From Nemertoderma westbladi (lineage: Eukaryota > Animalia > Xenacoelomorpha): 64,000 nt of DNA. This document shows, in pieces, positions 6,320 through 42,014 of the stretch (within the stretch, counting starts at the first letter, position 1; the number at the start of each line of letters is the position of its first letter). The stretch is taken from the NCBI GenBank assembly GCA_032718475.1, contig JAUCBJ010001126.1:1-64000 (forward strand), given 5' to 3'. The notes beneath the pieces are model-generated. The model was not told the DNA's origin. It did no database searches and worked only from the letters and a program-made list of their open reading frames with translations. The position numbers were made by a program, and so were the translations under genes.

Positions 6320-6330
6320 CTCCCCCCCAT
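6320..6330 (-). promoter_or_regulatory. Polypurine tract (PPT)
   Basis: Minus strand reads a G-run followed by AG immediately before the TGTT start of the 3' LTR. Confidence 0.8.
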
Positions 6331-7429: not shown

Positions 7430-7975
7430 TCTAACTCTAACTAGGTATTACGTACCCTCTAACTCTAACTCTAACTAGGTACTACGTACCTACTAACTCT
7501 CTAACTCTAGGTACTACGTACCTACTAACTCTAACTCTAACTAGGTACTACGCACCTACTAACTCTTACTAACTCTCTAACGGTACTACGTACCTACTAA
7601 CTCTTACTAACTCTCTAACGGTACTACGTACCCCTTAACTCCTACTCTCTAACGGTACTACGTACCCTCTAACTCTTACTCTAACGGTACTACACGTACC
7701 CTCCTACTAACTCTTCTACTAACGGTACTACACGTACCCTCCTACTAACTCTTCTACTAACGGTACTACACGTACCCTCCTACTAACTCTTCTACTAACG
7801 GTACTACACGTACCCTCCTACTAACTCTTCTACTAACGGTACTACACGTACCCTCCTACTAACTCTTCTACTAACGGTACTACACGTACCCTCCTACTAA
7901 CTCTTCTACTAACGGTACTACACGTACCCTCCTACTAACTCTTCTACTAACGGTACTACACGTACCATCCTACCT
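7430..7975. repeat. 38-bp tandem minisatellite in the 3' internal region of the LTR element
   Basis: ctaacggtactacacgtaccctcctactaactcttcta repeated ~8 times from 7681, with degenerate shorter units to the left; each unit has a ggtac...gtacc mini-hairpin. Confidence 0.85.
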
Positions 7976-8177
7976 AACTCCTAACTACCTAACTTCTGCC
8001 TACTCTATTATTTAATTATTTTCTTATTTTAATTAAATAATTATTTTATATTTTGTGCGTGGGAGGGGCGTCTCGCCCTCATTCCCACCCCCCTCAGTCC
8101 AAAACTTTGGACGACTAAAAACTCTCACGTGCCCCTTCTTCCGGTAGGCACTCTCCCGCTGCCCTCCTATACGTCCT

Positions 8178-11100
8178 CTAACTCTTCGCCACACTCTCTT
8201 CGGTGCCACCTTTGCTGGCCTCCCCCTTCGTATGTGCGCTGGCATTAAAGGCCCTCGACGACCCCCGCTCGTTCCTTGGTACACACGGCGTCTGCCCGTG
8301 CAATGCCCCCTCGCACTGTGTCCGTCCTGCGTGTGTATGCAACACGCCTCCTTCTACTTTCCCGACTCCCTTATGTTTGCTAATGGGCTTCTCTGCCCCT
8401 GGTTTAGTCCTTTCATATCCTCTCCCTTTCCAACACTCTCCGGATCTGTGTCCTTTTACCACACATCGATGACATAGTCCGTTTGCGTCTGTGTAGGCTA
8501 CACGATCTCGTTTGGGCAACGCTTGCCAGTACTTGCAACTCCTGGTCTTATGGGTTCCGTCCCGATGTAATTGACATTGGAATCCTGGATTATAGCGTTT
8601 CCTGTATAGTCCTTCACGTATCGCGCTTAGGTTTATATGTACCGATTTAATGTTTTGGTTGTCTAGACTCGGCCTACTGGGTATATTGGGATTGTGTTTA
8701 TTTTTGGTGTTATTTTCTTTCTGTCCCTGCCACGGTGTGGCCCTGCTCCCAGCTAACTGTGGACTAGCAGTCCCCTGTACGGCCGCGTGTGGTATTGACT
8801 GTCCGCACGACCTGTTCTCGTCCAAGGGAGTTCGATGTTCTCGCTCCTATTGGGGTATATTGTCGATATTGTGATGGGGGAATGTCACCCTGTCCCCCCC
8901 CAGCCGGTATGTTTGGTACTGGGGTTGATGTTAATACATTGGGGCCCATACGTCTATCTCCAATAACTCCCCCCTCCCCTGGATATATGTTATGTCCCTG
9001 TGTATTATAGTCATGCTGCTGTACCGATATAGGCCTACCTACCTCTCGCCTACCTACCGGTATGTACTCCGCGACTTCCGGGTTTAATCCCGTCGTTCGC
9101 GCTACCCCATCGCCTACTCTATCTCTCCCAGCATGGCCTATAATAGTATGTGCAGTAAGGCCTACAGTATGTCCTGCAGTCTGCATGTGCCCTTCCGAAC
9201 CGAAGTTTATTCTTCGCGAATCTCGAATCTCCCCGCGACTACTGCACTCTCGATCGGCAGCTATATCCCGTCGGGAAGCTTCTCTCCGATCCCCTCTCCT
9301 GTTCTCGACTCTGTATTGGTACGTCTTGTACCCCTCTCTTGGCGTGCGGTGCGTTTCTCCGGGGCGACGGCAATCTCCCGAAGTTCGACCCCACTGGCTC
9401 CCTGACTCCATCTCTACTGTCGACGGTCCGTTATCCGTCCTCGCACTGCTATCGTTCGTGGCGACACTTCTTCTACTATCTTCTCTTCTTCTCTTTTCTG
9501 TGTAGTATTCCGGCTCGTGAGATCTCTCGTCGACCTCCCGGTTAAACTCCACTGTTCTTCCTCCCTCTTCTGATCGGGCTCGACGCTTCGCCTGCCCTCT
9601 CGCGACGTCAACCTGCCTCTCTCTGCTCGATCGCACGCCGCTGGGGATACTCGCAATCCCCCTATTACTCTCCGTCGCCGGGTGTTGCGGTTTACCTGAT
9701 TCGGCCCGCGCATTATCCGCTGACGGCTGTGGGACACTCTCTGCCCCCCCTCTCTCTCTACTAGTCTCTCGCGGTGGGGTGCCCGTAGCCCCCCCCCACC
9801 CGCCACTTCTAACTTCACTATTTCTTACTACACTTCTATACCCCTCTTGTGGGGCATTCTCTGCCCCCCCTCTCTCGCCACTAATCTTATGTGGTGGGGC
9901 GCCGGTAGCCCCCCCCCCACTCGCCACATCTAACTTCACTATCTCTCACTTCGTCTCTACACCCCTCTCTAGTCGACGCACTGTCTCTACTACGGCTGGG
10001 TCTATTCACCCCCGCCTCTCTCTCTACTACTGCGTGGCCCACCAGGCCCACTTCGGGTTGGCTCAACCCCGCTACCTCCTGCCTACCAACTACGTGGCCT
10101 ACCAGGCCGCCGTCGGGTTGGCTCAACCCTGCCACCTCCTGCCTACTAACTACGTGGCCTACCAGGCCACCGTCTGCCGGGTTATGTACGTCCGACACGC
10201 TCATATTAATAGCACCATTCCCAATATTATTTGTTAAATCAATTAAATTATTAGAATTTGAAACGGGATTATTATTTAAATTATTTAAATTACTTAGATC
10301 ACTACTATTCTCTAAACTTAAATTATTATTCGAATTATTTTGCGGGTTTGAATTGAAATTATTATTTAGAGTATTTGTATTTAAATTTAAATACTACTAC
10401 CCGGTAAAATATTATTTCCTGTAATAAAGGGATTAGGGTTATTTACTACGGTACTATTAATATTAACTATCTTCTAACGTACTACTACTACCCCCCCCGC
10501 CCGTACGGCTACACCAGTTCTGGCTCTCTCGCCCGGTGCCTGTAAGTGGGGGCTCACTCTCTGATATCTCCAACCGCGCCAGTTCTAGTCGGCGCCGTTT
10601 AAGTTTGGCCCGATATTGCGCAAGCAGCGCCAGTCGGTCAAGCAAAAGATCTCGCTCACGCTTTTGCTTTAACTCTCTCTCTCCGCACACTCGGGACTCT
10701 CTCGCAAGCATCCCAGGCTGCCTCGCCGGCTCGCTCTCTATTCTCCCGGTTATTATCGCGATATGCTCCCGCTTTCTACGCTCCTCGGCCCTCTCTCTAT
10801 CCTCCCTTACCAACTCTAATAATGCGGTTTGCTCTCTCAATTGCCCCTCTAACTGTTTCCGCTCTGCCGCCGCCTTTTCTAATTTATACGCCACGCGTTC
10901 ACTCTCTCGCACCCATTTTTCTTTTGCGGAGGATGTAGCAGACTTATCGGTTGCGACGGACTCCCGTCGCCCCTCCGTCCCACTAACTTTCCCCCGCTTC
11001 CCGGAACTTCCTCCGACCGACGAGACCGAATCCTCGGAGTTAACCTCGGATTCGCCCTCCCCAGGTCTCTTCCAACCCACTAACTTAAATTCCCTGGCAC

Positions 11101-11815
11101 CGACTAAGTATGGCCCTATGTACACTACACCAGGCCCCATACCCCTACGTTCCCATAGCCCAAACAGTTCGAAGGCAACCCCTCTCGCTCTCTCCCTGGC
11201 CAGTTCTCCCTGCCCAGAACGCACTAGGTGATCAAAGTATCTGTTCGACTCACCTAGTCGTCTCCTCAGTCTCACCTCGTCTATCTTCGCCCCTCCTTTG
11301 GCCTCTCTCAGTTGCTCCCGGGTCACGAGGTAGGCCCGTCGAAGTCGATCAGAAACCCCGACGTCCTCGTCGCCGACCTCTCCTCCGTCCCTCCGGGTTC
11401 GACGTCGTACCGGCGGCTCCACCGTCGCCGTTCCGGTGGGCCGTCCGTCGCCCTCGGCCTGTAGCTGGCCGGCGACATCGGTACCGATCTTTCCTCCGTC
11501 TCTTCGCGTCCGGCGTCGCACCGTCGGCCCCACCGTCGCCGTTTCGGTGGGCCGCTCGTCGCCCTCGGCCGGTAGCTGGCCGGTGACATCGGCGCGCCGT
11601 TCTCCGTCTCGTGTCGACTCGTCTCCTTCTCCCTCCGTCTCGCTCTCTTTCTCTCTTAGCTCGACTTCGGGTTCCAGGCCCTCCTCGTTCCGGACTTCCG
11701 GTTCGCCCGTTATCGATGGCTCCGGCGTCGTGGGCCTGTATCGTTTGGTCGCGGCCTCGCGGATCGTTAGGTCTTCGTCCGGGGTCCGCGTCGGTGTCTC
11801 GCCCGATTCACTCAT
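8178..11815 (-). pseudogene. Frameshifted gag-like ORF ending in BEL/Pao-type zinc knuckles
   Basis: Segments 10463-11815, an Asn-rich open frame 10393-9887, 8764-9939 and 8178-8825 chain through frameshifts (~10467, ~10391, poly-C ~9910, ~8800). C-terminus CQLHRDGTHKTRSC..W..LPKRDRVAYTDANGLCHRCVVKGHRSGEC matches the BEL/Pao Gag double knuckle. Confidence 0.7.
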
Positions 11816-11929
11816 CTCGTTTGTGGCTGATGATTCGGCTAGCTAGGTTGCAGTTCTTAGAGTTTAACTAGGGCGGCAGCTCGGTTTAGTTACTGAGTTT
11901 AGCTGGGGAAGCAACACCGTTTTAGTTAC

Positions 11930-12467
11930 TGTGACGGGATCCAGGAGGGATCCCGATTTATCCGATGTGGTATTTAGTCCACGCGTCCCCGCCGTGTATA
12001 AGAGTGAAATAAAGATAACTGAGTTCTGAAGTTCGGTGTATAATAAGAGGTTATAGGATATAGATATATTGTGAATTGTACGGTAGGCAGGATACGGTAA
12101 CTAAAGTCCCGTGATCCCCTAACTAAACTAATTGGCTGTACCCTACGCTAGCACTGCTGCACTGAGATAACTGAATCACTGATTAATAGGTTATTGGTTA
12201 TATTGCACGGTGGCCTTACTGCTACTCAATCGATGCCATTCCCCCCTCTGATTGGTTAATACCCTTGTTGGCGCCCCGTGGAGTATTCCCGTTCACTCCA
12301 CCTGTTCTCCTTGGGTTAGGGGTTTGGCCCCTGACCCTCTATTGTGTGCTTCCTTCCCACTCTCATTGGGATGGCACGAGTTGGTTAATTGCCCAATCTC
12401 GTGGCTCCCAATATTGCTTATCGGCTAATAACTTTATGGGGTGTTGGCGGGATTGAATAAGCTAACA
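11930..12467 (-). repeat. 5' LTR
   Basis: 538-bp direct repeat of 5782-6319, followed by the TSD GGCTC. Confidence 0.95.
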
Positions 12468-14243
12468 GGCTCTTCCCTGTAGGACAGCTGGCTGACATGT
12501 GACCTATTTCGCCACACCTAAAAAAAATATCAAAAAAATATAAGTATCAAAGTATTAGCTATGACACTAATAAACCGGATGGATGGAACCGGAAGTATGG
12601 TATAATAAGGAAAGCACCCAAAAAACGTAGTATGTCAAATTTCTTTAATTTATTATTTCTTTATCAATTTATTTATACAGTTGTAGTTTAGTTTAATTTA
12701 TACTTACTTTTATAATGACTTGCAGTAGTTATAAAAAGGTGATGACCACATCCGGCCACTGTGTAACGAGTACCGGTACAGCTAGCTATACTGATTGTGT
12801 AACTGATTGTGTACCGGTACAGCTAGTTTCCACACCACTTTCACAAAGCCGTGCAAAGGGTGTCATTAGTGACACCTTCCCCTGTAGTATAGGCTATATC
12901 TTTACGGAGCCGTACAGTCGTCTACAGTTCCCCAGTCTGCAGCTAGATGGGGAATTGTCTAATAGTGAAAACCTTCTCTAACTTTGTTATTTACAACCCT
13001 TTTAAGCTGAAACTTGGTAGGTATCGACTGCGGCATAGACTGTATCATTACGGAGCCGTAGATTCATCTACACTTCCATAGTCTGCCGGTAGAGGGCGAA
13101 TTGTCTGATAGTAAAAATTTGATCTCATTTAGTTGTTTTAAATCCTTTTGAACTGAAACTTGGTAGGTATCTATTACGGCATAGGCTATATCTTTTACGG
13201 AGTCGCAGAGTAGTCTGAAGTTCCCCTGTCTGCCACTAGAGGGCTAATTGCCTTAAAGTGAAAACCTGATCTAATTTGGTTGTTTTTAATGCTTTTTTGC
13301 TGATAATTGGTAGATGTGTATTAAACCATAGGGTGTATGTCTACGTCTAGGGAGTACGCCAAACAACCTGCAGTTCTCTATTTGACCGCTAGGTGGCGAA
13401 ATGTCTGAAAGTGAAAACCTTCTCCCATTTCGATGTTTATAATGCTGCTCGGCTGATACTTGTCAGAGGTCTACCACACCATAGACAGCGTGTTTGTGGA
13501 GAACTCTGACCAATCTGCAATAGCTATGTCTGCCGCTAGAGGGCGAAATGTCTGAAAGTTAACATATTCTCTAACTTTGTTATTTACAATCCGTTTAGAC
13601 TGAAACTTGTCTAGGCATCTCTTATGGGGACGATGTTTCATTATATGGTGTCTGTTCCGTATGCAGTTCTCCAATCTGTCACTCATTTCTCCACACACTC
13701 ATACTGTATATTATCATCTATACGTCCCTCTTTAATAATTTTCTTTGAACTGAGGTTTTCGAGAGGGCGCTGTTTCCAATAATAGATATATTATTTATTA
13801 CACCATTTTAAACCCTCACCCTCAGCATCACCCTCAACCTCACCCTCAGCCTCACATCCGAGTCATTAGGTCTGCCTCAGACAAGAAATCTGAGGTTGGC
13901 TGCCTCAGACAAGAAATCTGAGGTTGGCTGCCTCAGACAAGAAATCTGAGGTTGTATTGTCAAACATTGAGGTCCAGCAAAGATTGAAAAAGAGCTTGAA
14001 TGAGAGTACATGGTAGACGATCTAATTAATCTTTCATATACGCATACGTTGCTTTCTATCAATTCCCTAATTACCGCTTTTATTTCTTGTGCGATTTCCT
14101 TTCTTATTGTTCAATTATTTTTTCGAGTATTTCCTCATTTTACCCCGATTGGGGGTGTTAATTGATTAAGTGCTGTACTCAGTACTGCAGCAATCAGATA
14201 CCAACTTTTTACTTTAGGCCTATCGGTTTGGGCAGTTGGGAAA

Positions 14244-16652
14244 ATGCTTGGGGAACATGAGCCCAATATTCAGACTACCCCTACCCCAACTGTGCCTCTA
14301 AACACGCCAGGCGGTCCACCGAACGGTCAGTCCACGAATAAAGGTCGAGGCGCTAAGCGTCCTCGAATAAGAAGTAGTGACTCCGCAACACCATCGATTA
14401 ACACCATCCCACCTGGAGATCGGTCAAACTTCGTATTCGGCAATGCGCAAACCTCAGGCCCGGATCAAACCAGCCAAGTTCTACTTCCAACTACCGGTAA
14501 TTATCTCGAGTTGTTACAGTTGATACCAGGGATAAAGGAGGGAGTTGATACATTACAGTTATCGTTTAACGACGCCACGGCTACGATTCATAGCAACTCC
14601 TGGAGGTTAGACTCCTTGCATCGACGCCAGGTTGAAACTGAAAAACTTATATCGAGCCGTTGTCTAATAGTAGCTGGTTTCCCGGAAGGTACAAGCAATG
14701 AAGTACCGGTACTCGAGGATGTGATGGGTGAGTTTATCAGCGGACGACTGGGAGTTCACCAACCACTTAATATTGAGCGAATATTTAGATTGGGACTCCT
14801 GAAACGAAACGCACGCAGTCATCCAATTAAGGTGGAGTTTCTAAGTCTTAAAACGCGGAATTTGGTGCTAGAAGCTGCTCGAAATTGCCTTGGTAAGGAT
14901 TCGTCGATTCGCTTCTCAGAAGATCTGCCAGTTGAGTTACGCCAACAGCGCGACACACTATCCCGACTGGCACGTGAGGCAACCACACTCGGTATGAGTA
15001 GCGCGGTCTGTGGAAACAAGCTTCTCTTGAATGGCAGCTCCATCAGCGGGTGGGAAGTTTATTCATCCCCGAATATAAGTTTATCGGCCATTCTCGGACG
15101 GGGCCAGTACCATTATCCAGCTGTATTGAAACCCTCTACCCCCGAACACCGCCCACCCTACCAACTGAACCAGTTCCACCACGCTCATCCGGTTCGACCA
15201 GTACCACCACCCTCATCTGTGAGGAATAACCCCTATACCGGATCTGGAAACCCATGTTCCGCATCCGCTTTAGACGACCAGCCAGTCTCGGCCGGTAATG
15301 CTTACGGTAACGGTGGTTACATTTCTACCCAGTATACACGACCGCGACCAAGCGCTGCGTATTGCCCTACAGTCTTTCACCCTGGTCGACCAGAACTTCC
15401 AAGCAATATTCGACCAGGTCCACCGCCCAGTGTCAATACCAGATACCGGTACCCTACTATGAGTCAGACTAATGCGCCATCTATCGGAGGTGATGGTGAG
15501 AATGGATGGCAGGTCGTTGTGAACCAAAATAAAAATTCAAGAAAATCCTACCCCGCAGTCCGAGACAGTATGTTATTGAACAACAAATTTGGAGTGCTTA
15601 TGGACCTCGATGATGGTGGTGTGGAAGCGATTACTCAGAGTCAAAATCATACGATCTGCTCTGTACCCAATACCTATATGTCTAGTATTAGTAGAAACGA
15701 TGTACGAATCAGTAGAAGTTTGTATTTAGCTGGTGCTAATGACGATATACCCCATTCTGTTACAGTGAATGATGTACCAAACAGTAGTAGTCAGTTTATA
15801 TCTGGTGCTAATAACGATATACCCCATCCTGTTACGGTGAATGATGTACCAAACAGTAGTAGTCAGTTTATATCTGGTGCTAATAACGATATACCCCATT
15901 CTGTTACGGTGAATGATGAACCAAATAGGAGTAGTCTGTATATAGCTGGTGCTAATGGCGATATATCCCACACTGTTACGATGAATGACGACAGTACTCC
16001 TCATTATGTAATGGTAAATGAAGAAACAAACAGCTCAAATATTTCGACTGGTGTGAATAGTTTTGTCGGAAGTGTGACAGAAAATTATTTTTCAAATAAA
16101 ACCAGTGAAGTAGTGCGCAAAAAATGCGCACGCAGTGACAGTCTGGATACGTGTATAAGTAATCTGCGTATGAGAAACAATATGCCTCCTATACCCAGCT
16201 CAGTTGTAGGTGTGTCTAGTTGTGCAATCAATTATCGCACTAGTGTAGCTACAGCTCCAGCGCATAGTATATCAGTTTCTACTTCTAACAGTATTAGAAG
16301 TTATTCTTATGATAATATCAATGAGTTTCACTGCCCTGATTCCGTCGGCTGTTCTAATGATATAAACTTTCAATTTTCCAATAACTGTAAACCCAGTTCT
16401 AGGAAACCCAAAAACCCAAAAGGCGTTAGTTTTGGCCACTGCCCAAGGGGGCGCAACACAAAGCGTCAAGAATCGACATCGCGCCGCGTTACGCGATCTA
16501 ACTCGGGTAACAGAATAAGCCAACGGTCCCAGAGCAGTGGTATCGTTACCGTTGTAGGAGTGTCTAACATTGCTGTAGGAAATAGTGTAGCCAATCAATG
16601 TGCTCAAACGACTGCAAACCCTCATCAGCCAGACAGCCTCTATCCGGACTAA
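14244..16652 (+). CDS. LINE ORF1 (coiled coil plus L1-type RRM region, long disordered tail with 24-aa repeats)
   Basis: RCLIVAGFPE...IERIFRLG...PIKVEFLSLKTRNLVL...IRFSEDLPVELRQQR is the typical ORF1 RRM/CTD signature. Confidence 0.8.
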   Translation: MLGEHEPNIQTTPTPTVPLNTPGGPPNGQSTNKGRGAKRPRIRSSDSATPSINTIPPGDRSNFVFGNAQTSGPDQTSQVLLPTTGNYLELLQLIPGIKEGVDTLQLSFNDATATIHSNSWRLDSLHRRQVETEKLISSRCLIVAGFPEGTSNEVPVLEDVMGEFISGRLGVHQPLNIERIFRLGLLKRNARSHPIKVEFLSLKTRNLVLEAARNCLGKDSSIRFSEDLPVELRQQRDTLSRLAREATTLGMSSAVCGNKLLLNGSSISGWEVYSSPNISLSAILGRGQYHYPAVLKPSTPEHRPPYQLNQFHHAHPVRPVPPPSSVRNNPYTGSGNPCSASALDDQPVSAGNAYGNGGYISTQYTRPRPSAAYCPTVFHPGRPELPSNIRPGPPPSVNTRYRYPTMSQTNAPSIGGDGENGWQVVVNQNKNSRKSYPAVRDSMLLNNKFGVLMDLDDGGVEAITQSQNHTICSVPNTYMSSISRNDVRISRSLYLAGANDDIPHSVTVNDVPNSSSQFISGANNDIPHPVTVNDVPNSSSQFISGANNDIPHSVTVNDEPNRSSLYIAGANGDISHTVTMNDDSTPHYVMVNEETNSSNISTGVNSFVGSVTENYFSNKTSEVVRKKCARSDSLDTCISNLRMRNNMPPIPSSVVGVSSCAINYRTSVATAPAHSISVSTSNSIRSYSYDNINEFHCPDSVGCSNDINFQFSNNCKPSSRKPKNPKGVSFGHCPRGRNTKRQESTSRRVTRSNSGNRISQRSQSSGIVTVVGVSNIAVGNSVANQCAQTTANPHQPDSLYPD

Positions 16653-19600
16653 ATAACGCTTCTGAAAATGACTTACAACATGGGACAGAACCCAACAATT
16701 CAATTTTATCACGACAAAATTGGAATGAATTTCAACCTAAATTTTCTATTGGCCTTTTGAACGTTGAGGGTTTGCTTTCTAAGCTAGAGGATCCAAATTT
16801 TTGTGATGTTATAAATAGGTACGATTTTTTCATCTGCACTGAGACATGGCTGAACCCATCAGCTAAGAAAAAAGTTTTTCTAGCAGGTTATGAATCTTTC
16901 TCTGCTACCAGAGCCACAAAGCATCCAAATGCTAAACGTTTTGATGGCGGGGTAACTATTTTAGTAAAAAACAACTTAGCCAGTTTCATTTCTCCGCTTG
17001 ATGGTCTGGATAGTGAATACATAGTGGGTTTAAAATTAGACGCAAATAAGTTACACATTGAACGCGATATTATTCTGTTCTCAGTTTATATCCCGCCTTC
17101 CGGTTCACATGCTGGTGCAGGTGACCCATCATCTCTCTTTGACATTCTGCAGGATGTTATTGCCAGTTATAGTAGTGGTAGTGATGTTATTGTAGTGGGA
17201 GACTTTAATGGTAGGACAGGGACCGAACCAGATTACATAATTGGGGATGCCATTACTACAGGTGCGCTTGACAGTCTACTGCCTCCAGACTACTCATACG
17301 ACGATGGTGACTTTGTGTTGCCTAGCATCCAGAAGGTTAGAGTAAACCAGGACAAGGTAGTTAATAATTTCGGACATAGACTCTTATCACTGTGTATGTC
17401 AACAGGGTTGCGTATCCTGAATGGCAGGATGGATAAAGATGCAACTGTCGGCAAGTGTACTTTCCATTCGGTAGGAAATAATATGACACGTAGGTCCACA
17501 ATTGACTATGTTCTTTGCTCAAAGGATTTGCTTGGTAGATGTTCCTCATTTTCCATTGACGACCCAAATATTTTTTCCCACCACTCATTACTTTCTGCAT
17601 CATTTGTAGAACAGTCCGCTACAATCTCTGATGCAGAACATGAGGACACAACAGACTATAGAGTAGAGAATAGTGAAGTGAATAATAGAACTAGTAAGCT
17701 AATATGGAAGGACTCCCGTAAACAAGCCTTTGTAAGTGACCTTGAATCAGTGGACATGCAATCGCGTTTGGGGGACATTCAGGATTCTCTGACAGGTGGT
17801 ATCTATTCAGCCGACTTAATTGAAAGTGCGACCCAACTGTTGTGTGACTGCATCACAGATACCGCAACTAAGTATTTTAAGGTTAGAGGTAACAACAATA
17901 GCAGTATGCATACTATCGATGCACCTTGGTATAAGGACGAGTGTTGTGAACGACTGCACGATTTTCGTAGAGCCCTTAATCATTGGTGTACCAGTAAATC
18001 GCCTGAATCGTTTACAATCCTATCAAAATCTCGTAGTATCTATCATAGAACATTGCGTCAATCTAAGGCACAATTCCGGCTGGATCAGTCTAATAAGTTG
18101 GAATCCTTGAGATGTTCAGAATCTAAAAAATTCTGGAAACTGTTAGCTAAGGCGTCTGGAAATTCTAGTTCTGCAGGCAGTACTAATAAACTTACACTCA
18201 AGGATTTTGAGACCCATTTTCGTAGTTTAATCGACACGTCATCCACTTTTCAGGATATGGGCATCGAACCCGATCCTGAAATTGATCCTCAGTTCAGTAG
18301 ATCCATCCTTGAAGGCGAAGTGTCACAACCAATTTCCCTAGACGAACTCATTTCCGCAGTTAGTAAATTGAAACGCAACAAAGCTCCCGGTGTAGATCTT
18401 CTCTTATCCGAGTTTTTCATTGAGGCCAAGGAAGCTCTATTCCCTACAATCCATACTCTTTTTAATGCTGTATTGTATTCTGGACACTTCCCGCGTGCTT
18501 GGACAACTGCATTGGTCACCCCAATTTATAAAAAGAAAGGCAGCAGCTTAGATACAAACAATTACCGCGGTATATCGTTGCTTAGTACTCTTGGTAAACT
18601 GTTTACAACCATATTGAACACACGCTTGTTTAGCAGAGAAGGTCTTCAATGTGCACTTGATATTCTGGGTCACTATACAGACTACTGGGCTCTTAAGGTT
18701 AACTTGGATAAAACAAATATAATAATCTTCCGACGCGGTGGGACCTCTGCAGTACTAGACAGATGGACATATAAGGGATGCCCTGTGAAGGTTGTCTCGT
18801 CATATACCTATTTAGGGGTTGAGTTCTCTTCCTCAGGAAGCTTCTTTGTCGCACAGAAGTCCCTTGCATCGAAAGCCAATAAAGCTCTGTTTTCTCTATA
18901 CAAGTACCTAAGCCATTTTTTGAACATTTCATTTGACCTTCGTATAAAACTATTCTCAACTCTTATAATACCAATTTTGAACTACGGTGCAGAAGTTTGG
19001 GGTTTTCACGCAGGGAGAGAGATTGAACGAGTCCAACTATCTTTTCTTAAACGCATAATTGGTGTGAAATCGAGTACACCGAATTTTATGGTATACGGCG
19101 AGTCAGGTGTAATTCCATTGGCTGTTTACAGGAAATTTATAATACTGAAGTTTTGGGTTCGCCTTCTATCATTGTCTAACAATCCTTAAGTAAACGAATT
19201 TATCTTGAACTATACAAAGACGCAACTGCAAGTAGATCCACTGTGAATTGGGCCTCTAGGGTCAGAGACACGTTAAATGGGTTAGGATTGAGTTGGGCTT
19301 GGGAGGTACAAGAGGTTGAGGATCGAAATAGTTTTTTAGGATTAGTCAAACGGATTTTATCTGACCAGTTCGTACAGGCCTGGTGGGCAAACATAAACGG
19401 GTCACCTAAGGGGAGACTCTACATTAAAGATCGGTTTGGTACAGAACTGTATTTGAACTCTCTGAAAAGTTTCCCCTCCTTAAAGCTGGCGCTAGCCCGC
19501 CTGCGGTGCTCAAGCCACAGGTTGCAAGTGGAGGTAGGCCGGTGGGAGCGACAGGAGCCTTCCGAGAGATTGTGTCGAATCTGTAACTCTGGAGAAATTG

Positions 19601-19800
19601 AGGATGAACTTCATTTTTTACTGATTTGTCCCGCATACAGAGAACTAAGAATAGAATTTATTAAAATGTATTATCAATTATTTCCATCCCTTTTTAAGTA
19701 CCGCAAATTATTATCATCCCAGTCCAGATCTGAAGTAAAAAATCTATCTATCTTTATTAGTAAGGCTACCAAACTTAGAAATACATTGTTATTGCTATAA
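16598..19800 (+). pseudogene. LINE ORF2 (APE endonuclease, truncated RT, C-terminal CCHC)
   Basis: LLNVEGL, TETWL, VGDFNGRTG, STIDY, SHHSLL (APE); KAPGVD, NYRGISLL then a jump to REGLQ with no YADD block; frameshift ~19185; RLCRICNSGEIEDELHFLLICP. Confidence 0.88.
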
Positions 19801-20410
19801 TCGAATATGTAACTTAACCTATATCAATAAAATTGTAACTACTCAAATCTATGATGTATAATATATGTTGTTATTTCTTTATGCATTGTGCATCTGAGAA
19901 TTGTATTTTTCTTTTTTTTTTATTGGCGCTGGAGCTGACAATGTTTTATGTTTATGTAGTCCAGTAATCGTGTGCTGTCAACTTATAGCATCAATAATGC
20001 TAGTTGTTCTAATATACGTACGACTCTAATAGTTTTAATTAATAAAAAAAATTGAATTGCTAATTACTTATTATTATTATTGAATGTAAAGAATAGTTAA
20101 AATGAATGTGGGTCAATGTGTGGTTTGATTTTAACGAACTACACGACACTACTAGGTGTGAATGGATTGTAACAAACTATACGACACTAGGTGTAAATGG
20201 ATTGGAACAAACTACACGACAATAGTTTAACAATAATTGAGTCACACCTATCATCGAAAATTTGGAATCATAATATTTTGTTACATTATATATATTGTAC
20301 ATTATCTATTAATACATATAGCAATATAATTGTAATTTCTTTATTCTAAGTGAAGGCTATTTATTCATTTAATCATTCTTCATTCATTCCTACCTGTCAC
20401 AATATTATGC

Positions 20411-20798
20411 TAACTTTAAGGTAAACACTAGAGTCTTACACCCTTTAACTACAAAAAAATATAGAATCAGGACATTAAGCCCAAAATACCTTCCAGACCC
20501 TAAGGCCATCAAGACCTAGGGTTAGGGTTGCGATACATACTTGTATGTGGAGCATGGTATAATATATTTTGTTTGTGTTTTTTGTTTGTTTTGTTTTGTG
20601 TTCCTTGATGGCCTTAGGGTCTGGAAGGTATTTTGGGCTTAATGTCCTGATACTATATTTTTGTTTGTGTTTTTTGTTTGTTTTGTTTTGTGTTCCTTGA
20701 TGGCCTTAGGGTCTGGAAGGTATTTTGGGCTTAATGTCCTGATTCTATATTTTTTTGTAGTTAAAGGGTGTAAGACTCTAGTGTTTACCTTAAAGTTA
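20411..20798. mobile_element. MITE/foldback with ~100-bp terminal inverted repeats
   Basis: taactttaaggtaaacactagagtcttacaccc...aaggccatcaag pairs with cttgatggcctt...gtgtttaccttaaagtta; internal tandem duplication; absent from copy 2. Confidence 0.85.
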
Positions 20799-21305
20799 AT
20801 ATATACATCACAACCCCCTGTTAGTCAGTATGTCGGTACATTCAATTATCACAATAGTATGCAGCGTAGACCTTATTATTATCGTCTGCCCTATTAGTAT
20901 ATATTGTACAGAATTGTATAATTGCAGAATCAACAACAGTAGTATAGAAAACCGATAAATGAGAACACCAACTACCCCCAGGTTAAAGTTTACTACTTAT
21001 AATGCATGTGGAGCTATTTCAATAAGCAAATAATAGGTTCTCATACGCTGATCAAAGGTCATTGTAGATAAAAAATGAGAATGTATGAGTAGGTTTTGGT
21101 TTGGAAACTAAGGTATTGAAACCTCCTTAATATATGATTTATATTGATATTCAAGTGCTCATGCCATGAGCACTTTACCAAAGTATTGAAAGGTATCAAG
21201 GAAAGGTTAAGTACCAAGGTATTGAAAGTTAATTAAAGTAATTTTTATAATGACTTGCATTCTATATAGTTTACAATAATAATATAATATAATATTTAAA
21301 TCATA

Positions 21306-21875
21306 TTAAATAGGTGTAAATTTCCAACCTAAGATTTTAAAAATTATTTTGCAAATATCATTGTGAAACTCTTTAGCATTTTTTGTTTTTAATATAGTAA
21401 AATTTTCAATATTGCAGGGGTGTTCATGCCTACATAGAAACTGAAACAATAAGTACTGTAAACTGAGAAAGTTCTTGCGTTGTATATGCAGTTTATTATA
21501 TTCCACAATGAATCTATTGAAATCACATAAGAGTTTTGTTTCTAAATGACTAATATTGTCTATTTGATTATTAGTAATAACTTGATAAATAAAATTAGCA
21601 TTCTTGTAATGTTTAGCATAATTTATTTCTTTTAAACATCTTGTTATATCTTTTCTTGTTATAGAAGAGTACCTATTTTCATAATACTCAACCAATAGAT
21701 TGTTCTCTTGAAATTTTTTTGTTATCTCTCTCAATAAATGATCTGAAATTCTACAAAATTGTAGTCCTTGATACTGTCTCATGCAAGATTTGAAATAAGC
21801 TTCTCTACTATATTTAAACTTAGTAATATGTTTATTATAATTATTATTATTATAAGAAGAATATAAAAGTTCCAT
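21306..21875 (-). CDS. NCLDV (iridovirus-like) late transcription factor VLTF3 homolog, N-terminally shortened; endogenous viral element
   Basis: KYSREAYFKSCMRQYQGLQ...ITRKDITRCLKEINYAKHYKNANFIY..IT...ISHLETKLLCDF...RKNFLSLQYLLFQFL.RH.HPC..ENFTILKT...HNDICKIIFKILGWKFTPI reproduces the Pox_VLTF3 motif order; intronless and very AT-rich. Confidence 0.85.
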   Translation of the reverse strand: MELLYSSYNNNNYNKHITKFKYSREAYFKSCMRQYQGLQFCRISDHLLREITKKFQENNLLVEYYENRYSSITRKDITRCLKEINYAKHYKNANFIYQVITNNQIDNISHLETKLLCDFNRFIVEYNKLHIQRKNFLSLQYLLFQFLCRHEHPCNIENFTILKTKNAKEFHNDICKIIFKILGWKFTPI

Positions 21876-22236
21876 GAATTCTTTTACCAGACTGACATTA
21901 AGATTTCAACTACTTTTTAGATTTCAACTACTTGTTTACACCGATTTATCACAAATTATCATCATTTTCACCAAATTTTTCGCTTAAAAATGGATGGATT
22001 CCATTTTCCTGAAAGTTGTTCACATGTTCTGACAATATGGTTGGAAGTTCATACATATATACACCATGTCCCGTAATATAGTATCATAACTCGATGACAC
22101 GACCCGCACCCCCCCCTAATTTTTCTACAAATCTCATATCATATTTCATGAAATTTGAGGCAATTACTTTCAGTTTGAAAACCCTTATCATAATTAATTA
22201 GTCTGTTGTTTGGCCTATGTAATATAATAATATAAT

Positions 22237-22482: not shown

Positions 22483-23595
22483 ATGTAAACATGTTTGTCA
22501 GTCAGTAAGTCATGAATATCTTGCTTGTCGACAGGCAGGAGCGTGCTGGGGTTTGGGGGCCCCCAGGGGATTCAGGACTCAGGGGCTGATCCAGGAATTT
22601 TTGCGAAGTGGATCGATGGGGAGCGCAGAGCGATCTGCAGATACTGTAGCGCAAATCGAAGGATTGCGCATAAAATTGACAATGTTGTGGGTGCAATTGA
22701 ATGCTCTATCTTTGACCGAGATACCAGGTTTCTTTCTCTCGACCACCTATGTACTTTTTCTCGTCACAGATACAAATAAATATTCATTTTGTGTCGCTAA
22801 ACAGGTAATATAATGCGCATCGCACTCAGAATGAATACAACAAGGGCTTCCCAGCCTGGTTTTGCCGCCATGTTGCATTGTACGTTCTGGTTATTCAGCA
22901 ATGTAATCAACATTTAAGTACATCAGTAGTAAAATCTGGCTGCCAACCTGTGCAACAGCTGCGCTGTGCACTTGCTGTTTAGTAGACCTAGTGCCTATGC
23001 TACAGTATTTCTTTTACTCTATGCACAGATCAGTCTGCAAACTATGGCAAATTTCGGCAAGATCTTGGGCCTGCAGGAAGGAAAATTAGAGCGTGCACGG
23101 CGTACACATGCAATCAGAGTATCAGTATGCACATGTGCACCCATGGAATTACAGCGTGAACGCCATGTATGCAAGTATAGAGTGCACGCATGTAATCAGA
23201 GTACATGCACGTGTGCAGGTGCAGGTGCACCCATGGAATTACAGCGTGCACTCCGTATGCAAATATAGAGTGCACGCATGTAATCAGAGTATGCACGTGT
23301 GCACCCATTCAATTAAATCTTTTTTTGCGCTTGCAAGGCCTGCACATCGTTTTGGCGTGTGAGCACCGTGAAAACCCCCGACTCGGCTGCCATATTAAAC
23401 AGTTTTAACTAGTGAGTTAAACAAATGTAAAGCTAATGAGAAGCTGATGTTTGGGAACTCACTCAGGTATCTCTGTACCGGTATTGAAAAATATGCTCAG
23501 CTACCGGTATGTCACCCTTGTCAGCCTATAAACGAATAAACTTCAGTACTTACATCATTATAATTATAATAATAATAATAATTGTTATTATCTAA

Positions 23596-28830: not shown

Positions 28831-30111
28831 TGTAGTATTACTACAGTACTAGTATGTACCCCCTCACTTGTATGGCCAGCACGCCCATCACCCATGTCGA
28901 CGGGATACTGTACGTATGTGATGTTAATAATATTGTGATTAAGAATACTACAGCGTAATTCACATTTGGTTTAATGACTTTGATACGTCTGTACGTGTCT
29001 AGTCTAGTCTCGTTTTGTGATGTCTTACTTTGTCTCCGGTACATAGGCCTACTGTATTTTGTTGTTTATTACGTCCAACCTCCTCTTCCACCCGAAGATC
29101 ACGATGGTTCCCGTCGAGCTCTACCTACGTCGCAACATAACCGCCGGATCACCGACCGACTTCATCAGGGTCGACGAGATTCCTGCCCTTCGCACCCTAT
29201 ATGGAATACTGACAAAAAGCGCGCCACACGCGTCCTGGTTAAACGAAAATCGCGCCAGCCATGATATCTAATGCGCGCCAAGCCAACAATTGACTATGAA
29301 ATTTTGCAGTAATTGCTTAATTGTAATAATTTATCAGTTTATAATGCTGTAGCCCTACAGTATTTTATCATTAACATGCGAGCGTAGCGAGCAAGGAAAT
29401 TTTCCAATTATGTTAACATAAATACAGTCTGACAGTAATAGTCAGATAGTGCTGTAGTTGTAGTAGTAGTAGTAATAGGTCAACGTCAACTGTCTGTTTT
29501 TAAATGTAGATGTCATGAAATGCGAGCGTAGCGAGCACGAAAATTTTAACATTTCAGCATTTAAAGTAGGCAAACCGCCTGTTTTCAAATGCAGAAATGC
29601 AGATGTCATTAAATTGCGAGCGTAGCGAGCACGAAAATTCTGCTGAATCATGCAGGCAGTCATGGTTTTATTGGTTTGAAGAATCTGACAATTGGAAAAC
29701 TTTTGAAACAAGTCATGTTTTTAATGGTCATGCAGTCATGCTCAATCTGTCCGTTTCCATTTGTCCACAGCCAGACAGTGCTAAGAGTAGGCTTACAGTA
29801 TAAACGCGAGCGAAGCGAGCGGACATTTTTCAATCTTTTTAAACCTATGGAATAATTTCAAATATAGCTGTAGAGTGGGATGTGTTGCCAGTGCACTGCT
29901 ACGCTACCGCTACATCCTACACTAAACCCTACATCCATATTCGCGCCAGGACCGCCAGGATCCTCAATGCGCGCCACACGCCCCTGTCACTACGCGCCAG
30001 GATCCTTAATCCGCGCCACACGCCCCTGTCACTATGCGCCAGGATCCTTAATCCGCGCCACACATGTTGAGCAAACTCTAAATTCCAACCTGGCTTCGCA
30101 CCCGCTCGCAG

Positions 30112-30966
30112 AGGCAGAAGTTGACCGCGTTGAAGGAGGCCGTGGGGCAGCTGGGCATCCCCGTCACCTACAAGACCATCCCCGGCCACAAGGAGAGATC
30201 GCCGATGCTGAAGATCCACGGCATCCGCGAGAAGACATCGGAGGAGAAGTTGAAGCAATCGGTGGTGGTCATCGTGGTCGGGATCCGGAGCGAGTTCCTC
30301 GCCATCGTCGACCATCTCCAGGATCCGAGGCACCTCGAGGTGGATCTCCCCTGGACGAAGAAGAGAGCCGTCGGATTCCTGCGAGGTTCGGACTCCGTCA
30401 TCACCGTCGTCCTCCCCAAGAACATCATTGCCCCCAACGCTGCCGGAGCCATCCCCCAGGTTTTCGCCATCGCCAAAAACACCGTCGAGTATGCCCTCAA
30501 GGTAGGCACCGTCTTCGGCGGAGAGGACTCGGAGATGGGAGAGATCGGGGTCCTGAAATCGGTGGGACGGGCCAGTCCCTTGTACGATGGGTACATGCGT
30601 GAGTGGACGAAGCCGTGGGACGGATTTCCCAGTCGCCAGATATACGACATTGGTGAGGATCTGGACAGAAAGATCAAGGTGCGTGGTCGTTGGGTTCGGA
30701 TCTTGGGGAGGGCAACGACGAGCGGTCCCGCTCGTTTCCCCGGCGAGCAGCAGTTGGAGGAGAGGAGCCATGGCGAGTTCGAGATGTCCGGCGTAGTGTG
30801 GGCCGTCATAGCGACCACGTTCGGACACCCCGTCGAAACATCCCACATCAGTGTCGTTACCGACAAGGACGGCGAGGGCGCCTCCCCGACCGACAGGAAG
30901 AAATATCTAGAGAGACTTGCCATCGTCGCCTGCGAGATCCTGAGGAAATGCCTCGACGAGACCTGA
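30112..30966 (+). CDS. PNP_UDP_1 (purine nucleoside phosphorylase / MTA-SAH nucleosidase) fold protein, probably a terminal exon
   Basis: VVIVVGIRSEFLAIVDHL, YALKVGTVFGG, TTSGP, EFEMSGVVWA, ISVVTDKDG and a terminal helix YLERLAIVACEILRKCL follow the family motif order; strong GC3 bias; in-frame acceptor ctcgcag at 30111. Confidence 0.65.
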   Translation, partial: RQKLTALKEAVGQLGIPVTYKTIPGHKERSPMLKIHGIREKTSEEKLKQSVVVIVVGIRSEFLAIVDHLQDPRHLEVDLPWTKKRAVGFLRGSDSVITVVLPKNIIAPNAAGAIPQVFAIAKNTVEYALKVGTVFGGEDSEMGEIGVLKSVGRASPLYDGYMREWTKPWDGFPSRQIYDIGEDLDRKIKVRGRWVRILGRATTSGPARFPGEQQLEERSHGEFEMSGVVWAVIATTFGHPVETSHISVVTDKDGEGASPTDRKKYLERLAIVACEILRKCLDET

Positions 30967-31369
30967 GAAGAATTCACCATCTGTCTTTATAATGTCTTGG
31001 ATAAATTCATGTGGGATCCTCTACTTTTCGGCAATAAAACATAATTATTTGCAAGATTATAAATTAAATCGACGGAAACGTTATATAAGTTATTATTTCT
31101 ATTCTCATATCTATTCTCGGATCTTTGAAGTAATAGGCCAATTTTTTGTCGGATTTCCAAATTAAAAGTGCAAATCAATTTCAACCATCACCAAACATGC
31201 GTTCAAAACTGGTAAAGTGGCAAAAAAATCAGCTAAAAGACACTGATTTGTCACAATTTTTCACCATTTTCTGCAATTTCACAAAAAAATATATGGTAGG
31301 GGGGGGGGGGGGGGGGGGGGGAATTTTAGGCAAATGCGATTTTTCACCGATTTTGTGCTATTTGATTTT

Positions 31370-32440
31370 TTTTGCATTTTGCCTATAATTTAGGGGCCAA
31401 ATTTTAAACATTTGTGTTTTTTCCCTGTTTTTTGCGCTATTTTTCGTCATTTTTTAAGATTTGCCTAAAATTTAGGGGCCAAATTTTAGGCATTTGTGTT
31501 TTTTCCCTGTTTTTTGCACATTTTTTCGTCATTTTTTACGATTTGCCTAAAATTTAGGGGCCAAATTTTAGGCATTTGTGTTTTTTCCCTGTTTTTTGCG
31601 CTATTTTTCGTCATTTTTTACAATTTGCCTAAAATTTAGGGGCCAAATTTTAGGCATTTGTGTTTTTTCCCTGTTTTTTGCACATTTTTTCGTCATTTTT
31701 TACGATTTGCCTAAAATTTAGGGGCCAAATTTTAGGCATTTGTGTTTTTTCCCTGTTTTTTGCGCTATTTTTCGTCATTTTTTACGATTTGCCTAAAATT
31801 TAGGGGCCAAATTTTAGGCATTTGTGTTTTTTCCCTGTTTTTTGCGCTATTTTTCGTCATTTTTTACAATTTGCCTAAAATTTAGGGGCCAAATTTTAGG
31901 CATTTGTGTTTTTTCCCTGTTTTTTGCGCATTTTTTCGTCATTTTTTACGATTTGCCTAAAATTTAGGGGCCAAATTTTAGGCATTTGTGTTTTTTCCCT
32001 GTTTTTTGCGCTATTTTTCGTTATTTTTTACAATTTGCCTAAAATTTAGGGGCCAAATTTTAGGCATTTGTGTTTTTTCCCTGTTTTTTGCGCATTTTTT
32101 CGTCATTTTTTACGATTTGCCTAAAATTTAGGGGCCAAATTTTAGGCATTTGTGTTTTTTCCCTGTTTTTTGCGCTATTTTTCGTCATTTTTTACGATTT
32201 GCCTAAAATTTAGGGGCCAAATTTTAGGCATTTTTGTTTTTTCCCTGTTTTTTTTCGCTATTTTTCGTCATTTATTAAAATTTGCCTAAAATTTAGGGGC
32301 CAAATTTTAGGCATTTGTGTTTTTTCCCTGTTTTTTGCGCATTTTTTCGTCATTTTTTACGATTTGCCTAAAATTTAGGGGCCAAATTTTAGGCATTTGT
32401 GTTTTTTCCCTGTTTTTTGAGCTATTTTTCGTCATTTATT
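31370..32440. repeat. ~82-bp tandem satellite, about 13 units
   Basis: ttgcctaaaatttaggggccaaattttaggcatttgtgttttttccctgttttttgcgc(t)atttttcgtcattttttacgat repeated; begins after a poly-G run. Confidence 0.92.
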
Positions 32441-32743
32441 TTTAGTTCATCAACACAGCCGTTTTTCGGCGGTGTACATAGATTTTAGTTCATCAACACA
32501 GCCGTTTTTCGGCGGGGTACATAGATTTTAGTAGTCTTTGCCGTTATTAGTAGTAAGGTTACTGACGCTTTTTGTGTGAAAAGTTCGTGTTGACCGGTTT
32601 TTTTTCAAGTGAGAGTCCACGATGAAGCAGATTTCGCTTTTTCTTTGAATGATCTCATTGGATCAATCATCAGTTTGTGGCACTTGATTGCATTTGATTG
32701 TACTAATGCATGATTGATTGATGATTGTTATGGTTTCCTAAGA

Positions 32744-33139
32744 TTATACTGTATTGAATAGAGTAGAAATCCTTGCTATCAAGCTACTCCAAGTGTTATT
32801 CTCCTTCAACTTGCTTGGCTGTTTTGCTTGATTGTGGGCTACAGTCACAATTCTATCTTTGTTCTTTTGTGGTGTTGTCTTCGTTCTGCCTACTTTCACT
32901 AGCAATGGAGATAATACAGTGGACAATTCACACTGCATCTGCAAAACCTCTCTCTGCAAGAAATAGCCATATACTGGTCTGGCAGATTCGCCAGCTGCAT
33001 TCTGCAAATATAATATATGACGCACTTTTCCTCTATAGCTCTGGTTCCAGTATGCTATACATTGATATTCACCTTCTTCCAATTCAAGCACTTTTCTCAC
33101 ACTGCTCTTCTCTTTTGCAGGATATTCAACCAAACACAT
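32744..33139 (-). pseudogene. Protein-like ORF fragment of unknown family, possibly virus/transposon derived
   Basis: 131 aa with globular-looking composition (VRKVLELEEGEYQC...YRGKVRHILYL...VKVGRTKTTPQKNKDRIV); frame closed by TAG 15 codons upstream of the ATG. Confidence 0.35.
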
Positions 33140-33496
33140 GGACTTGGCCTTCTCATATTCATTTTCTCTACTTTCTTCAATCTATCTTGTATATTTTGTT
33201 GTTCGCCTTCAATTGGGCTTCTCAATAATTTAATTGGATACCAAATAATTATCTGCTGCTGCTCACTATTGAACTCTTTGGGTGCTCCGTGTCATCAACT
33301 CTCCGTGTCATCAGAAAATTATACTATATTACGGGTCATGGTGTATATTCTGCAACAGTTTAACCTGAAATATCATGCTTTCACTTTTATTTTATAATTT
33401 CAATAAATACTAGCTAGCAATAAAACTAATTAAATTACAAAAAATTCCCGACGTTTGCGAAATTCGCGAAGAATCTGTCAGTTTCTGTGCCCTACT

Positions 33497-41958: not shown

Positions 41959-42014
41959 CTAAAAACGATAAAGTTTTATTATACTGTAACGCGTTTTTCT
42001 GGAGTAAAATGAAA

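What the first reader, a model, noticed from the sequence alone, without database searches (positions are those of the whole stretch)
21306..21875. Giant-virus (iridovirus-like) VLTF3 gene with an open frame in an animal genome
Seen: a 189-codon uninterrupted ORF in very AT-rich DNA, flanked by host repeats, with no other clear viral core gene nearby; aggtattgaaa-like motifs repeat at ~21110-21230. Known: VLTF3 is a Nucleocytoviricota core gene with no normal cellular counterpart; the N-terminal Zn-ribbon region appears missing here. Inference: a recent endogenisation, a transposon-carried viral gene or a domesticated factor.
Basis: partly seen in the sequence, partly recalled or inferred. Interest (0 to 1): 0.7.

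Follow-up and report, generated by a model that had tools for sequence, protein, structure and literature searches.

The report
Iridovirus gene riding an animal transposon
This is a cut-off, probably dead copy of an iridovirus-type late-transcription-factor gene (VLTF3) that sits just inside the end of a repeat present in likely ten to thirty copies in an animal genome; the repeat is likely a Maverick/Polinton virus-like transposon, which would make it a trace of gene capture between these elements and iridoviruses.

Summary
The ORF (21306-21875, minus strand) is real: the whole Pox_VLTF3 domain (125.5 bits), 40-52% identical to its closest relatives, and inside an iridovirus-like clade (100/98). 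It is not a lone gene. In three DNA runs from two studies its contigs are 12-29 times deeper than the unique flank and break into many short variants, so it belongs to a repeat family. The unit has a sharp left end at 20938 that a second study's contig bridges exactly, and it begins AGTAGT, the commonest published Maverick end motif. The window copy lacks the zinc ribbon (another copy keeps a CxxC knuckle in frame); its differences from sister copies look neutral (4 silent of 12). Best reading: a decaying end fragment of a Maverick/Polinton carrying a captured iridovirus-type VLTF3 (about 50%); another transposon carrier is the main rival. No second terminal repeat, target duplication or Polinton core gene is in the window, so membership is unproven. 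VLTF3 in coral Polintons and iridovirus insertions in fish are in print; this combination I did not find. The scan had not noted it on other DNA.

The parts
21306..21875 (-). Open frame for the VLTF3 core domain (189 aa), iridovirus-type; starts at an internal Met, zinc ribbon absent
20938..20943 (+). Left end of the repeated unit; begins with (AGT)2, the commonest Maverick end motif in print
   Evidence: flank match ends at 20937; two X3 contigs leave at 20938 with other flanks; X2 contig 20886-20984 bridges the junction with 0 differences
20938..21305 (.). Non-coding terminal region (candidate terminal repeat), with a unit of about 43 bp at 21027-21069 that appears to be tandem in other copies and the 11-base motifs at 21111, 21181, 21217
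   Evidence: depth, joint 21069 to 21027 in table 5c, loose end at 21072; no tblastx hit to viral loci
21127..21216 (.). 90-bp insert that most sister copies lack
   Evidence: joint 21126-21217 at depth 1178/569/728; bin 21138-21183 depth 34/0/9.5
21876..21886 (-). Last bases shared with a sister copy whose frame continues upstream into a CxxC knuckle; the window copy departs here
   Evidence: table 7, X1 loose end at 21886, read by hand; bin 21874-21919 depth falls to 252/73/36
21887..22057 (.). Sequence upstream of the break: stops in the VLTF3 frame, an 18-bp tandem duplication (21898-21933), no detectable zinc ribbon; likely another repeat
   Evidence: weak 75% match of 21938-21997 to 31240-31296
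22057..22101 (.). 45-bp motif of a very abundant repeat (likely an end of another DNA element), inverted copy at 33304-33348
   Evidence: depth above 10,000 in three runs
20849..20937 (+). Left flank: end of a low-copy segment duplicated at 38739-38827, where no VLTF3 unit follows
22499..23539 (.). Right-hand single-copy flank used as depth yardstick (0 differences in three runs; depth 80.7, 17.4, 12.7)
   Evidence: table 8

Best explanation
The ORF is the core domain of an iridovirus-type VLTF3 gene lying 370 bp inside the left end of a repeat with likely ten to thirty copies, and that repeat is likely a Maverick/Polinton virus-like transposon that captured the gene, of which this locus is a truncated, likely non-functional end fragment. 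Shown: the domain identity, its clade, a sharp shared left end, many variant copies in two studies, loss of the zinc ribbon in this copy. Inferred: (1) a Maverick took a single VLTF3 gene from a co-infecting iridovirus-like virus into its terminal accessory region; (2) its integrase spread the family through the germ line; (3) in intact copies the protein, a zinc ribbon plus a cyclin-type core built like TFIIB, would switch on the element's capsid genes or engage the transcription machinery of a helper iridovirus; (4) this copy lost everything upstream of 21886 and now drifts neutrally.
For: Domain and clade: Pfam 125.5 bits; best hits 52-45% identical; nearest named sequence is from Rhinella marina erythrocytic-like virus, an iridovirus; ML tree puts it with that protein and frog virus 3 001R at 100/98, and the AU test rejects joining the 8 outgroup rows, p 0.033; top structure matches are two iridoviruses. 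Multicopy: single contigs over the ORF have depth 975, 509 and 360 against 80.7, 17.4 and 12.7 for the unique flank; 214-340 contigs per run lie on 1.36 kb, most 80-99% alike, longest listed piece on the ORF 223 bp. Shared end: the flank's duplicate stops matching at 20937, two X3 contigs leave at 20938 with different flanks, and an X2 contig bridges the junction with 52 and 47 bases and no difference. The six bases starting at 20938 are AGTAGT; any of three published end motifs within one base of a fixed site has a chance of about 0.003. Mavericks have accessory regions outside the core modules and average 22 copies in vertebrates; coral Polintons carry VLTF3 homologues. Single-gene capture: in 34 of the closest viral loci the next gene follows within 23-483 bp (31 of 34 within 134 bp), while the window has 368 bp without a hit and then the end. 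Decay: 4 silent and 8 residue-changing differences among the 12 listed, neutral expectation 22% silent, p 0.25; at 5 of the 8 the sister copies carry the residue commoner in 21 homologues.
Against: The carrier rests on a six-base motif at one boundary, noticed after the fact. No inverted copy of the terminal region lies in 21301-64000, no target duplication can be checked, and no Polinton core gene is in the window; no whole genome was available and the scan holds no Polinton note for this genome (only 78 windows noted). Depth in the terminal region is about 1-1.5 times the ORF depth at single sites, not the clear doubling expected of a terminal inverted repeat. All close relatives with known context lie in large NCLDV genomes, none beside a protein-primed polymerase or rve integrase. 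Contig depth is not a copy number by the tool's own warning, and two runs of one sample give 12 and 28. The nearest tree sisters (four short-contig proteins) have long branches and unknown context. The transcription role is from family knowledge and a middling fold score.
Confidence: 0.5

Rival explanations
1. The gene is passive cargo of some other DNA transposon (a non-autonomous Helitron-, Mutator- or KDZ-type element, or a Teratorn-like transposon-iridovirus fusion) that copied a piece of an old iridovirus insertion around the genome; the AGTAGT is coincidence.
For: Multicopy signal and shared left end are the same. Copies leave the window at many places (21273, 21747, 21819, 21886, 21930), as in internally deleted families. 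No Polinton gene or second terminal repeat is seen. Unchecked scan notes describe several cargo-bearing DNA transposons in this genome.
Against: The end matches the Maverick motif at the exact base. No stable terminal hairpin (z 0.65) and no CTRR end as recalled for Helitrons. VLTF3 has precedent in Polintons; one paper on cargo-bearing DNA transposons has no mention of it.
Confidence: 0.3
2. One piece of iridovirus DNA integrated by accident and was then multiplied by segmental or tandem duplication, without a transposon of its own.
For: The window is rich in nested duplications (segment 33494-38827 repeats as 3708-20937). Iridovirus insertions without mobility genes are described in fish genomes.
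Against: The flanks on both sides are at single- or low-copy depth while the unit is 12-29 times deeper; other copies carry different flanks at the same end; no viral neighbour gene is retained.
Confidence: 0.12
3. The 189-aa frame is a domesticated host factor: a ribbon-less TFIIB-like core kept under selection, for example as a decoy against iridovirus transcription.
For: The whole Pfam domain is open and folds confidently (pLDDT 85); it keeps 51 of 64 strongly conserved columns, like its nearest sister (49 of 63).
Against: No excess of silent differences among copies; the start is an internal Met preceded in a sister copy by in-frame coding sequence; some contigs carry one-base indels inside the frame at 21519 and 21768; an open frame is expected about half the time at this divergence.
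Confidence: 0.05
4. The gene comes from a free virus in the sample, joined to host DNA by assembly error.
For: High depth could reflect replicating virus; no single listed contig spans the right-hand junction.
Against: A second study's contig crosses the left junction exactly at flank depth; the sequence falls into hundreds of short variant contigs in three runs instead of one long viral contig; no viral gene neighbours.
Confidence: 0.03

Closest known systems
VLTF3 of Iridoviridae (Rhinella marina erythrocytic-like virus QXT57802.1; frog virus 3 001R; largemouth bass virus A0A9E7TJS4); Pfam PF04947
   Same: Same core domain, 48% identity to the cane-toad virus protein over the matched stretch, same clade, best structure matches.
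   Different: Free-virus homologues are mostly 330-390 aa with two CxxC knuckles and sit among tightly packed viral genes; this one lacks the ribbon in this copy, has no viral neighbours and is multicopy in an animal genome.
Mavericks/Polintons of animals (PMC8097293, passages) and VLTF3-bearing polintoviruses of stony corals (PMC11131425, section 8)
   Same: End motif (AGT)2, low-tens copy number, mostly degraded copies, accessory genes outside the core, VLTF3 as an accessory gene.
   Different: No core gene, second terminal repeat or target duplication is present at this locus; the coral paper does not say which virus family its VLTF3 genes come from (section read; the one supplement held as text has no mention).
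Isolated VLTF3 in the sea anemone Exaiptasia pallida (PMC5294986, passages)
   Same: [quoted passage not shown]
   Different: That gene was placed with Asfarviridae in the paper's table; this one is iridovirus-like and has a mapped mobile-type end.
Endogenous iridovirus regions of ray-finned fish (bioRxiv 10.1101/2025.04.19.649669, sections 9 and 10, passages)
   Same: Iridovirus-derived DNA fixed in animal chromosomes.
   Different: Those are multi-gene regions read as accidental insertions; here a single gene has been amplified in a repeat, in a likely invertebrate.
TFIIB/TFB/cyclin fold
   Same: The predicted core aligns with Pol III and Pol II initiation-complex chains, archaeal TFB, ORC6 and cyclins at Z 5-7.9, rmsd about 3, about 90 residues.
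   Different: Scores are below 8, identity 0-13%; a shared helical fold, not shown homology or function.

Membership tests
Pox_VLTF3 (PF04947) | Profile match above the curated cut-off over the domain | tested here: met
   125.5 bits against cut-off 25, positions 3-168 of 168
Functional VLTF3 protein | N-terminal zinc ribbon with two CxxC knuckles before the core | tested here: not met
   Absent in this copy; one sister contig shows one in-frame knuckle (read by hand). Ranavirus 001R also lacks a clear ribbon (sequence), so the ribbon is usual, not universal
Iridovirus-type VLTF3 | Groups with named iridovirus VLTF3 proteins in a tree | tested here: met
   100/98 clade with frog virus 3 and the cane-toad iridovirus; AU p 0.033 against 8 outgroup rows
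Iridoviridae as opposed to other Pimascovirales | Placement against ascovirus, marseillevirus and pithovirus references | tested here: inconclusive
   No such named rows were in the tree; structure search ranks two iridoviruses first (34, 30% identity), a marseillevirus third (26%)
Maverick/Polinton | End motif (AGT)2 or (AG)3 at the terminus | tested here: met
   AGTAGT at 20938-20943, the mapped left boundary
Maverick/Polinton | Long terminal inverted repeats at both ends | tested here: inconclusive
   No inverted partner in 21301-64000; ACTACT at 21909 and 21927 has no matching repeat behind it; the copy is truncated, so the family is untested
Maverick/Polinton | Six-base target-site duplication | not testable with these tools
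   Right end not present; the expected junction was not found in the window; no genome held
Maverick/Polinton | Protein-primed polymerase B, rve integrase, capsid, ATPase, protease genes | tested here: inconclusive
   None among 94 window ORFs; the locus is a 0.95-kb end fragment and other copies could not be read
Giant endogenous viral element (multi-gene NCLDV insert) | Several colinear NCLDV genes | tested here: not met
   One viral gene only
Helitron | 3' hairpin followed by CTRR (recalled) | tested here: not met
   No stable fold at the mapped end, z 0.65; the end does not read CTRR on the gene strand; only this one end was tested
Domesticated viral gene | Single orthologous locus, transcribed, under purifying selection | tested here: inconclusive
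   Multicopy and neutral-looking, but the test has 12 sites and no RNA or sister-species data were available

The most novel reading that the evidence does not exclude
An animal Maverick family has taken the late-transcription factor of an iridovirus and keeps it as a working zinc-ribbon/TFIIB-like switch in its intact copies. That would be direct genomic evidence that animal Mavericks share cells with iridoviruses and behave as their virophage-like parasites, as proposed without gene-level evidence for vertebrates, and the short ribbon-plus-core proteins that are its nearest tree sisters would be a wider clade of such captured genes.
Probability: 0.25. Interest if true: 0.75.

Novelty: new variant of a known kind. 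Interest (0 to 1): 0.47.

Why it matters
Whether animal Mavericks/Polintons make virions and depend on a helper giant virus is open; iridoviruses were proposed as the helper from host range alone (PMC8097293, passage). An iridovirus-type transcription factor at the end of a multicopy Maverick-like element names a family and a gene on which that can be tested. At the least it records past iridovirus infection of the germ line in a little-studied animal lineage, and it warns that VLTF3, widely used as a giant-virus marker, can come from an amplified repeat without any giant virus present. This locus itself is probably a dead fragment.

Tried and rejected
No whole genome is held, so copies could not be read directly. 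No RNA holder was listed; this says nothing on expression. Run X5 (same species label, third study) covers neither the ORF nor the unique flank: uninformative. Word-index homologue search near the query length found none of 48 candidates; exact peptide scan of viral contigs found 0 of 42; exact DNA scan of metagenome contigs found 0; the clade-profile scan there gave 2 of 570, both short contigs. The short sister proteins P0181 and P0041 were not found in viral contigs (0 of 2 and 0 of 8 candidates), so their context is unknown. One weak prokaryote hit (E 3e-4, 1 of 47) was set aside. My first idea that 21876-21953 is a decayed zinc ribbon came from a profile alignment running through three stops; a dedicated test did not support it and depth drops there, so I now read it as truncation at 21886 followed by other DNA. 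For the same reason the idea that the family gene is a short 215-aa form is only suggested by the tree sisters. The idea that the motifs at 22057 and 33348 are two ends of one 11-kb element could not be tested. Joint 20920-22059 (24 bases on its short side) was not taken as an empty site. Foldseek against the PDB gave no match at E 0.001 or better. The ORFs at 30205-30963 and 32747-33181 had no Pfam hit and no relative in viral contigs; the Atlas hit for the second is a weak lead only. Paper searches found no report of an iridovirus-type VLTF3 in an animal Maverick; the library lacks most subscription papers, and Krupovic and Koonin 2016, cited in the coral paper for VLTF3 in Polintons, was not seen.

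Full report
Observation. It matches Pfam Pox_VLTF3 at 125.5 bits over profile positions 3-168 of 168. The region is 19-32% GC per 100 bp and an open frame of this length is not chance (about 7e-9). The window is otherwise animal-type repeat-rich DNA: two LINEs, an LTR-bounded element, a SINE-like repeat, MITEs, and RPL18, glutaredoxin and CCHC-knuckle genes; the RPL18 scores highest against what I recall as animal ribosome entries (289 bits, against 268 or less for plant and fungal entries). No second viral gene was found among 94 ORFs by Pfam or among 524 ORFs against 134 viral loci. The 11-base motif exists but is not enriched window-wide.

Origin of the gene. HMMER over 1.84 billion representatives gave 872 hits at E 0.001 or better, the best at 52% identity. 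Of 30 proteins looked up for names, the informative ones were Rhinella marina erythrocytic-like virus (P0007, 48%) and ranavirus 001R (P0132); most have no name. The cane-toad virus is described as an iridovirus close to Betairidovirinae (PMC8450580, passages). The closest viral contigs are large NCLDV genomes: RNA-primed polymerase B, NCLDV capsid, D5, two RNA polymerase subunits, DUF5757 and DUF5850, and no protein-primed polymerase or rve integrase among the 28 and 66 neighbour proteins scanned (the 66 are of 74 cluster representatives, 8 left out because their locus matches one scanned). A FastTree of 152 domains, a quick mixture-model tree of 63 rows (the careful run did not finish) and a careful LG+G4 tree of 32 rows chosen after seeing the first tree all put the protein in the clade with the named iridoviruses (100/98; AU p 0.033 against joining the 8 outgroup rows). 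Its nearest sisters are four unnamed proteins from short contigs, three of them 215-230 aa with a zinc ribbon close to the start (98/93); branches are long. No named ascovirus, marseillevirus or Polinton row was available. The AlphaFold model (pLDDT 85) matches largemouth bass virus and lymphocystis virus VLTF3 first and, among solved structures, cyclin-fold proteins including TFIIB and TFB at Z up to 7.9, which the tool counts as middling.

It is a repeat family. Three DNA runs of one organism label, from two samples and two studies, hold the stretch; one may be the window's own source. The unique flank 22499-23539 is matched with no difference at depth 80.7, 17.4 and 12.7, while single contigs over the ORF have depth 975, 509 and 360: ratios of 12, 29 and 28. 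The tool warns that depth is no copy number, and the two runs of one sample disagree, so I take 'roughly ten to thirty'. On 1.36 kb lie 214, 223 and 340 contigs, most 80-99% alike; the longest listed piece on the ORF is 223 bp. A free virus would be expected to give long contigs. Copies leave the window at several places with unrelated sequence (21273, 21747, 21819, 21886, 21930), and one-base indels inside the frame appear in some contigs (21519, 21768).

The unit has a defined left end. The segment left of it is a low-copy duplicate of 33494-38827, and the match ends at 20937. Two X3 contigs leave at 20938 with flanks that disagree with each other, and an X2 contig (second study) spans 20886-20984 without a difference at depth 15, close to flank depth. 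So the junction is real and the end is shared between loci. The bases at 20938-20943 are AGTAGT, the commonest end motif of vertebrate Mavericks (PMC8097293, passage); the chance of any of three published motifs within one base of a given site is about 0.003 from local counts, though I noticed it after the fact. A unit of about 43 bp near 21027-21069 appears tandem in other copies. In viruses the next gene follows VLTF3 closely (31 of 34 loci within 134 bp), whereas here 368 bp without a hit lead to the end, which fits capture of one gene rather than a slice of viral genome. Against the Maverick reading: no inverted partner in the rest of the window, no core genes, no clear doubling of depth at the end, and no listed contig spans the right-hand side in one piece.

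This copy is probably dead. A zinc-ribbon profile from 260 natural homologues finds nothing upstream. One X1 contig that leaves the window at 21886 continues, by my hand reading of the 30 letters shown, in the ORF's frame into a CxxC knuckle at the spacing seen in homologues; so the family gene had the ribbon and the Met at 21875 is internal. Of the 12 differences listed inside the frame (the tables are cut to the best supported), 4 are silent and 8 change a residue, against 22% silent expected under neutrality (p 0.25); at 5 of the 8 the sister copies carry the residue commoner among 21 homologues. With 6.3% of single changes giving a stop, an open frame after 12 changes has a chance of 0.46. 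The window copy also has a 90-bp insert at 21127-21216 that most copies lack.

Mechanism. Shown: iridovirus-type domain, multicopy family, shared end, truncation. Inferred: a Maverick captured the gene from a co-infecting iridovirus-like virus into a terminal accessory region (such regions are described in PMC8097293, passage), spread by its integrase, and left fragments such as this one. In intact copies the ribbon-plus-core protein would act as a late-gene switch, either for the element's capsid genes or on a helper virus's polymerase; the late-transcription role is family knowledge from poxviruses (recalled, and the Pfam name), not tested. Unchecked scan notes of Polintons with their own TBP in other animals offer a parallel. 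I give 0.5 to the Maverick carrier, 0.3 to another transposon, 0.12 to plain duplication of an insertion, 0.05 to domestication and 0.03 to artefact.

What is known. VLTF3 homologues in coral polintoviruses (PMC11131425, section 8 and passages; supplement held as text has no mention, figures not seen), in MELD viruses of non-animal hosts (PMC8502044, one passage) and in some Polinton-like viruses (10.64898/2026.06.19.733378, passages); an isolated asfarvirus-like VLTF3 in Exaiptasia (PMC5294986, passages); iridovirus regions in fish chromosomes (10.1101/2025.04.19.649669, abstract, passages, sections 9 and 10; its supplements are closed and may list invertebrate cases). Mriyaviruses also carry VLTF3 (PMC11253617, passages). 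PMC12730594, 10.1101/2023.08.22.554363, PMC3671162 and PMC7458399 were searched for the gene name without result; PMC3014272 gave general Polinton features (passages). Ten searches did not turn up an iridovirus-type VLTF3 in an animal Maverick. The scan's own index has no look-alike.

Verdict. A real, correctly named viral gene, but a fragment of an amplified mobile repeat rather than a lone or domesticated gene. New variant of a known kind; interest 0.47, rising to about 0.75 if intact Maverick copies with this gene are shown.

Noticed in passing
window 3708-20937 and 33494-38827: A 5.3-kb segment occurs twice (91-97% alike); the left copy is stretched by nested inserts: an LTR-bounded element, a LINE and a MITE.
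   Followed up: partly
window 5781-12467: Element with 539-bp LTRs 99.8% alike, so very young; its ORFs of 459, 393 and 222 aa have no Pfam hit and no pol was seen. Possibly a non-autonomous LTR element.
   Followed up: partly
window 41659-53971 (-): A CNBP-like CCHC zinc-knuckle gene with a roughly 10-kb satellite (about 42100-52300) built from a degenerate knuckle-coding unit.
   Followed up: no
window 372-935 (-) and 40453-40746 (+): RPL18 and glutaredoxin are each a complete ORF without introns: retrocopies or an intron-poor gene set.
   Followed up: partly
window 29929-30986: GC-rich island with an orphan ORF of 294 codons (30082-30966, +) overlapped by antisense frames of 325 and 272 codons; no Pfam hit, no relative in viral contigs.
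   Followed up: partly
window 31240-33348: Poly-G run, 13 copies of an 82-bp unit (31378-32437), an orphan 145-aa frame (32747-33181, -) and the abundant 45-bp end motif also found inverted at 22057-22101.
   Followed up: partly
window 20406-20857: MITE with 108-bp arms 98% complementary and an internal 92-bp duplication; an empty-site joint 20405-20858 is seen in two runs.
   Followed up: partly
L030:4725-5573, L015:19302-20474, L009:270-1292: VLTF3-bearing large-virus contigs carry an ATG9-like piece, a full innexin and a CARD protein.
   Followed up: no
proteins P0016, P0181, P0041, P0028: Short VLTF3 proteins (zinc ribbon near the start, 215-230 aa for three of them) from short contigs form a clade with the window protein; their genomic context is unknown.
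   Followed up: partly
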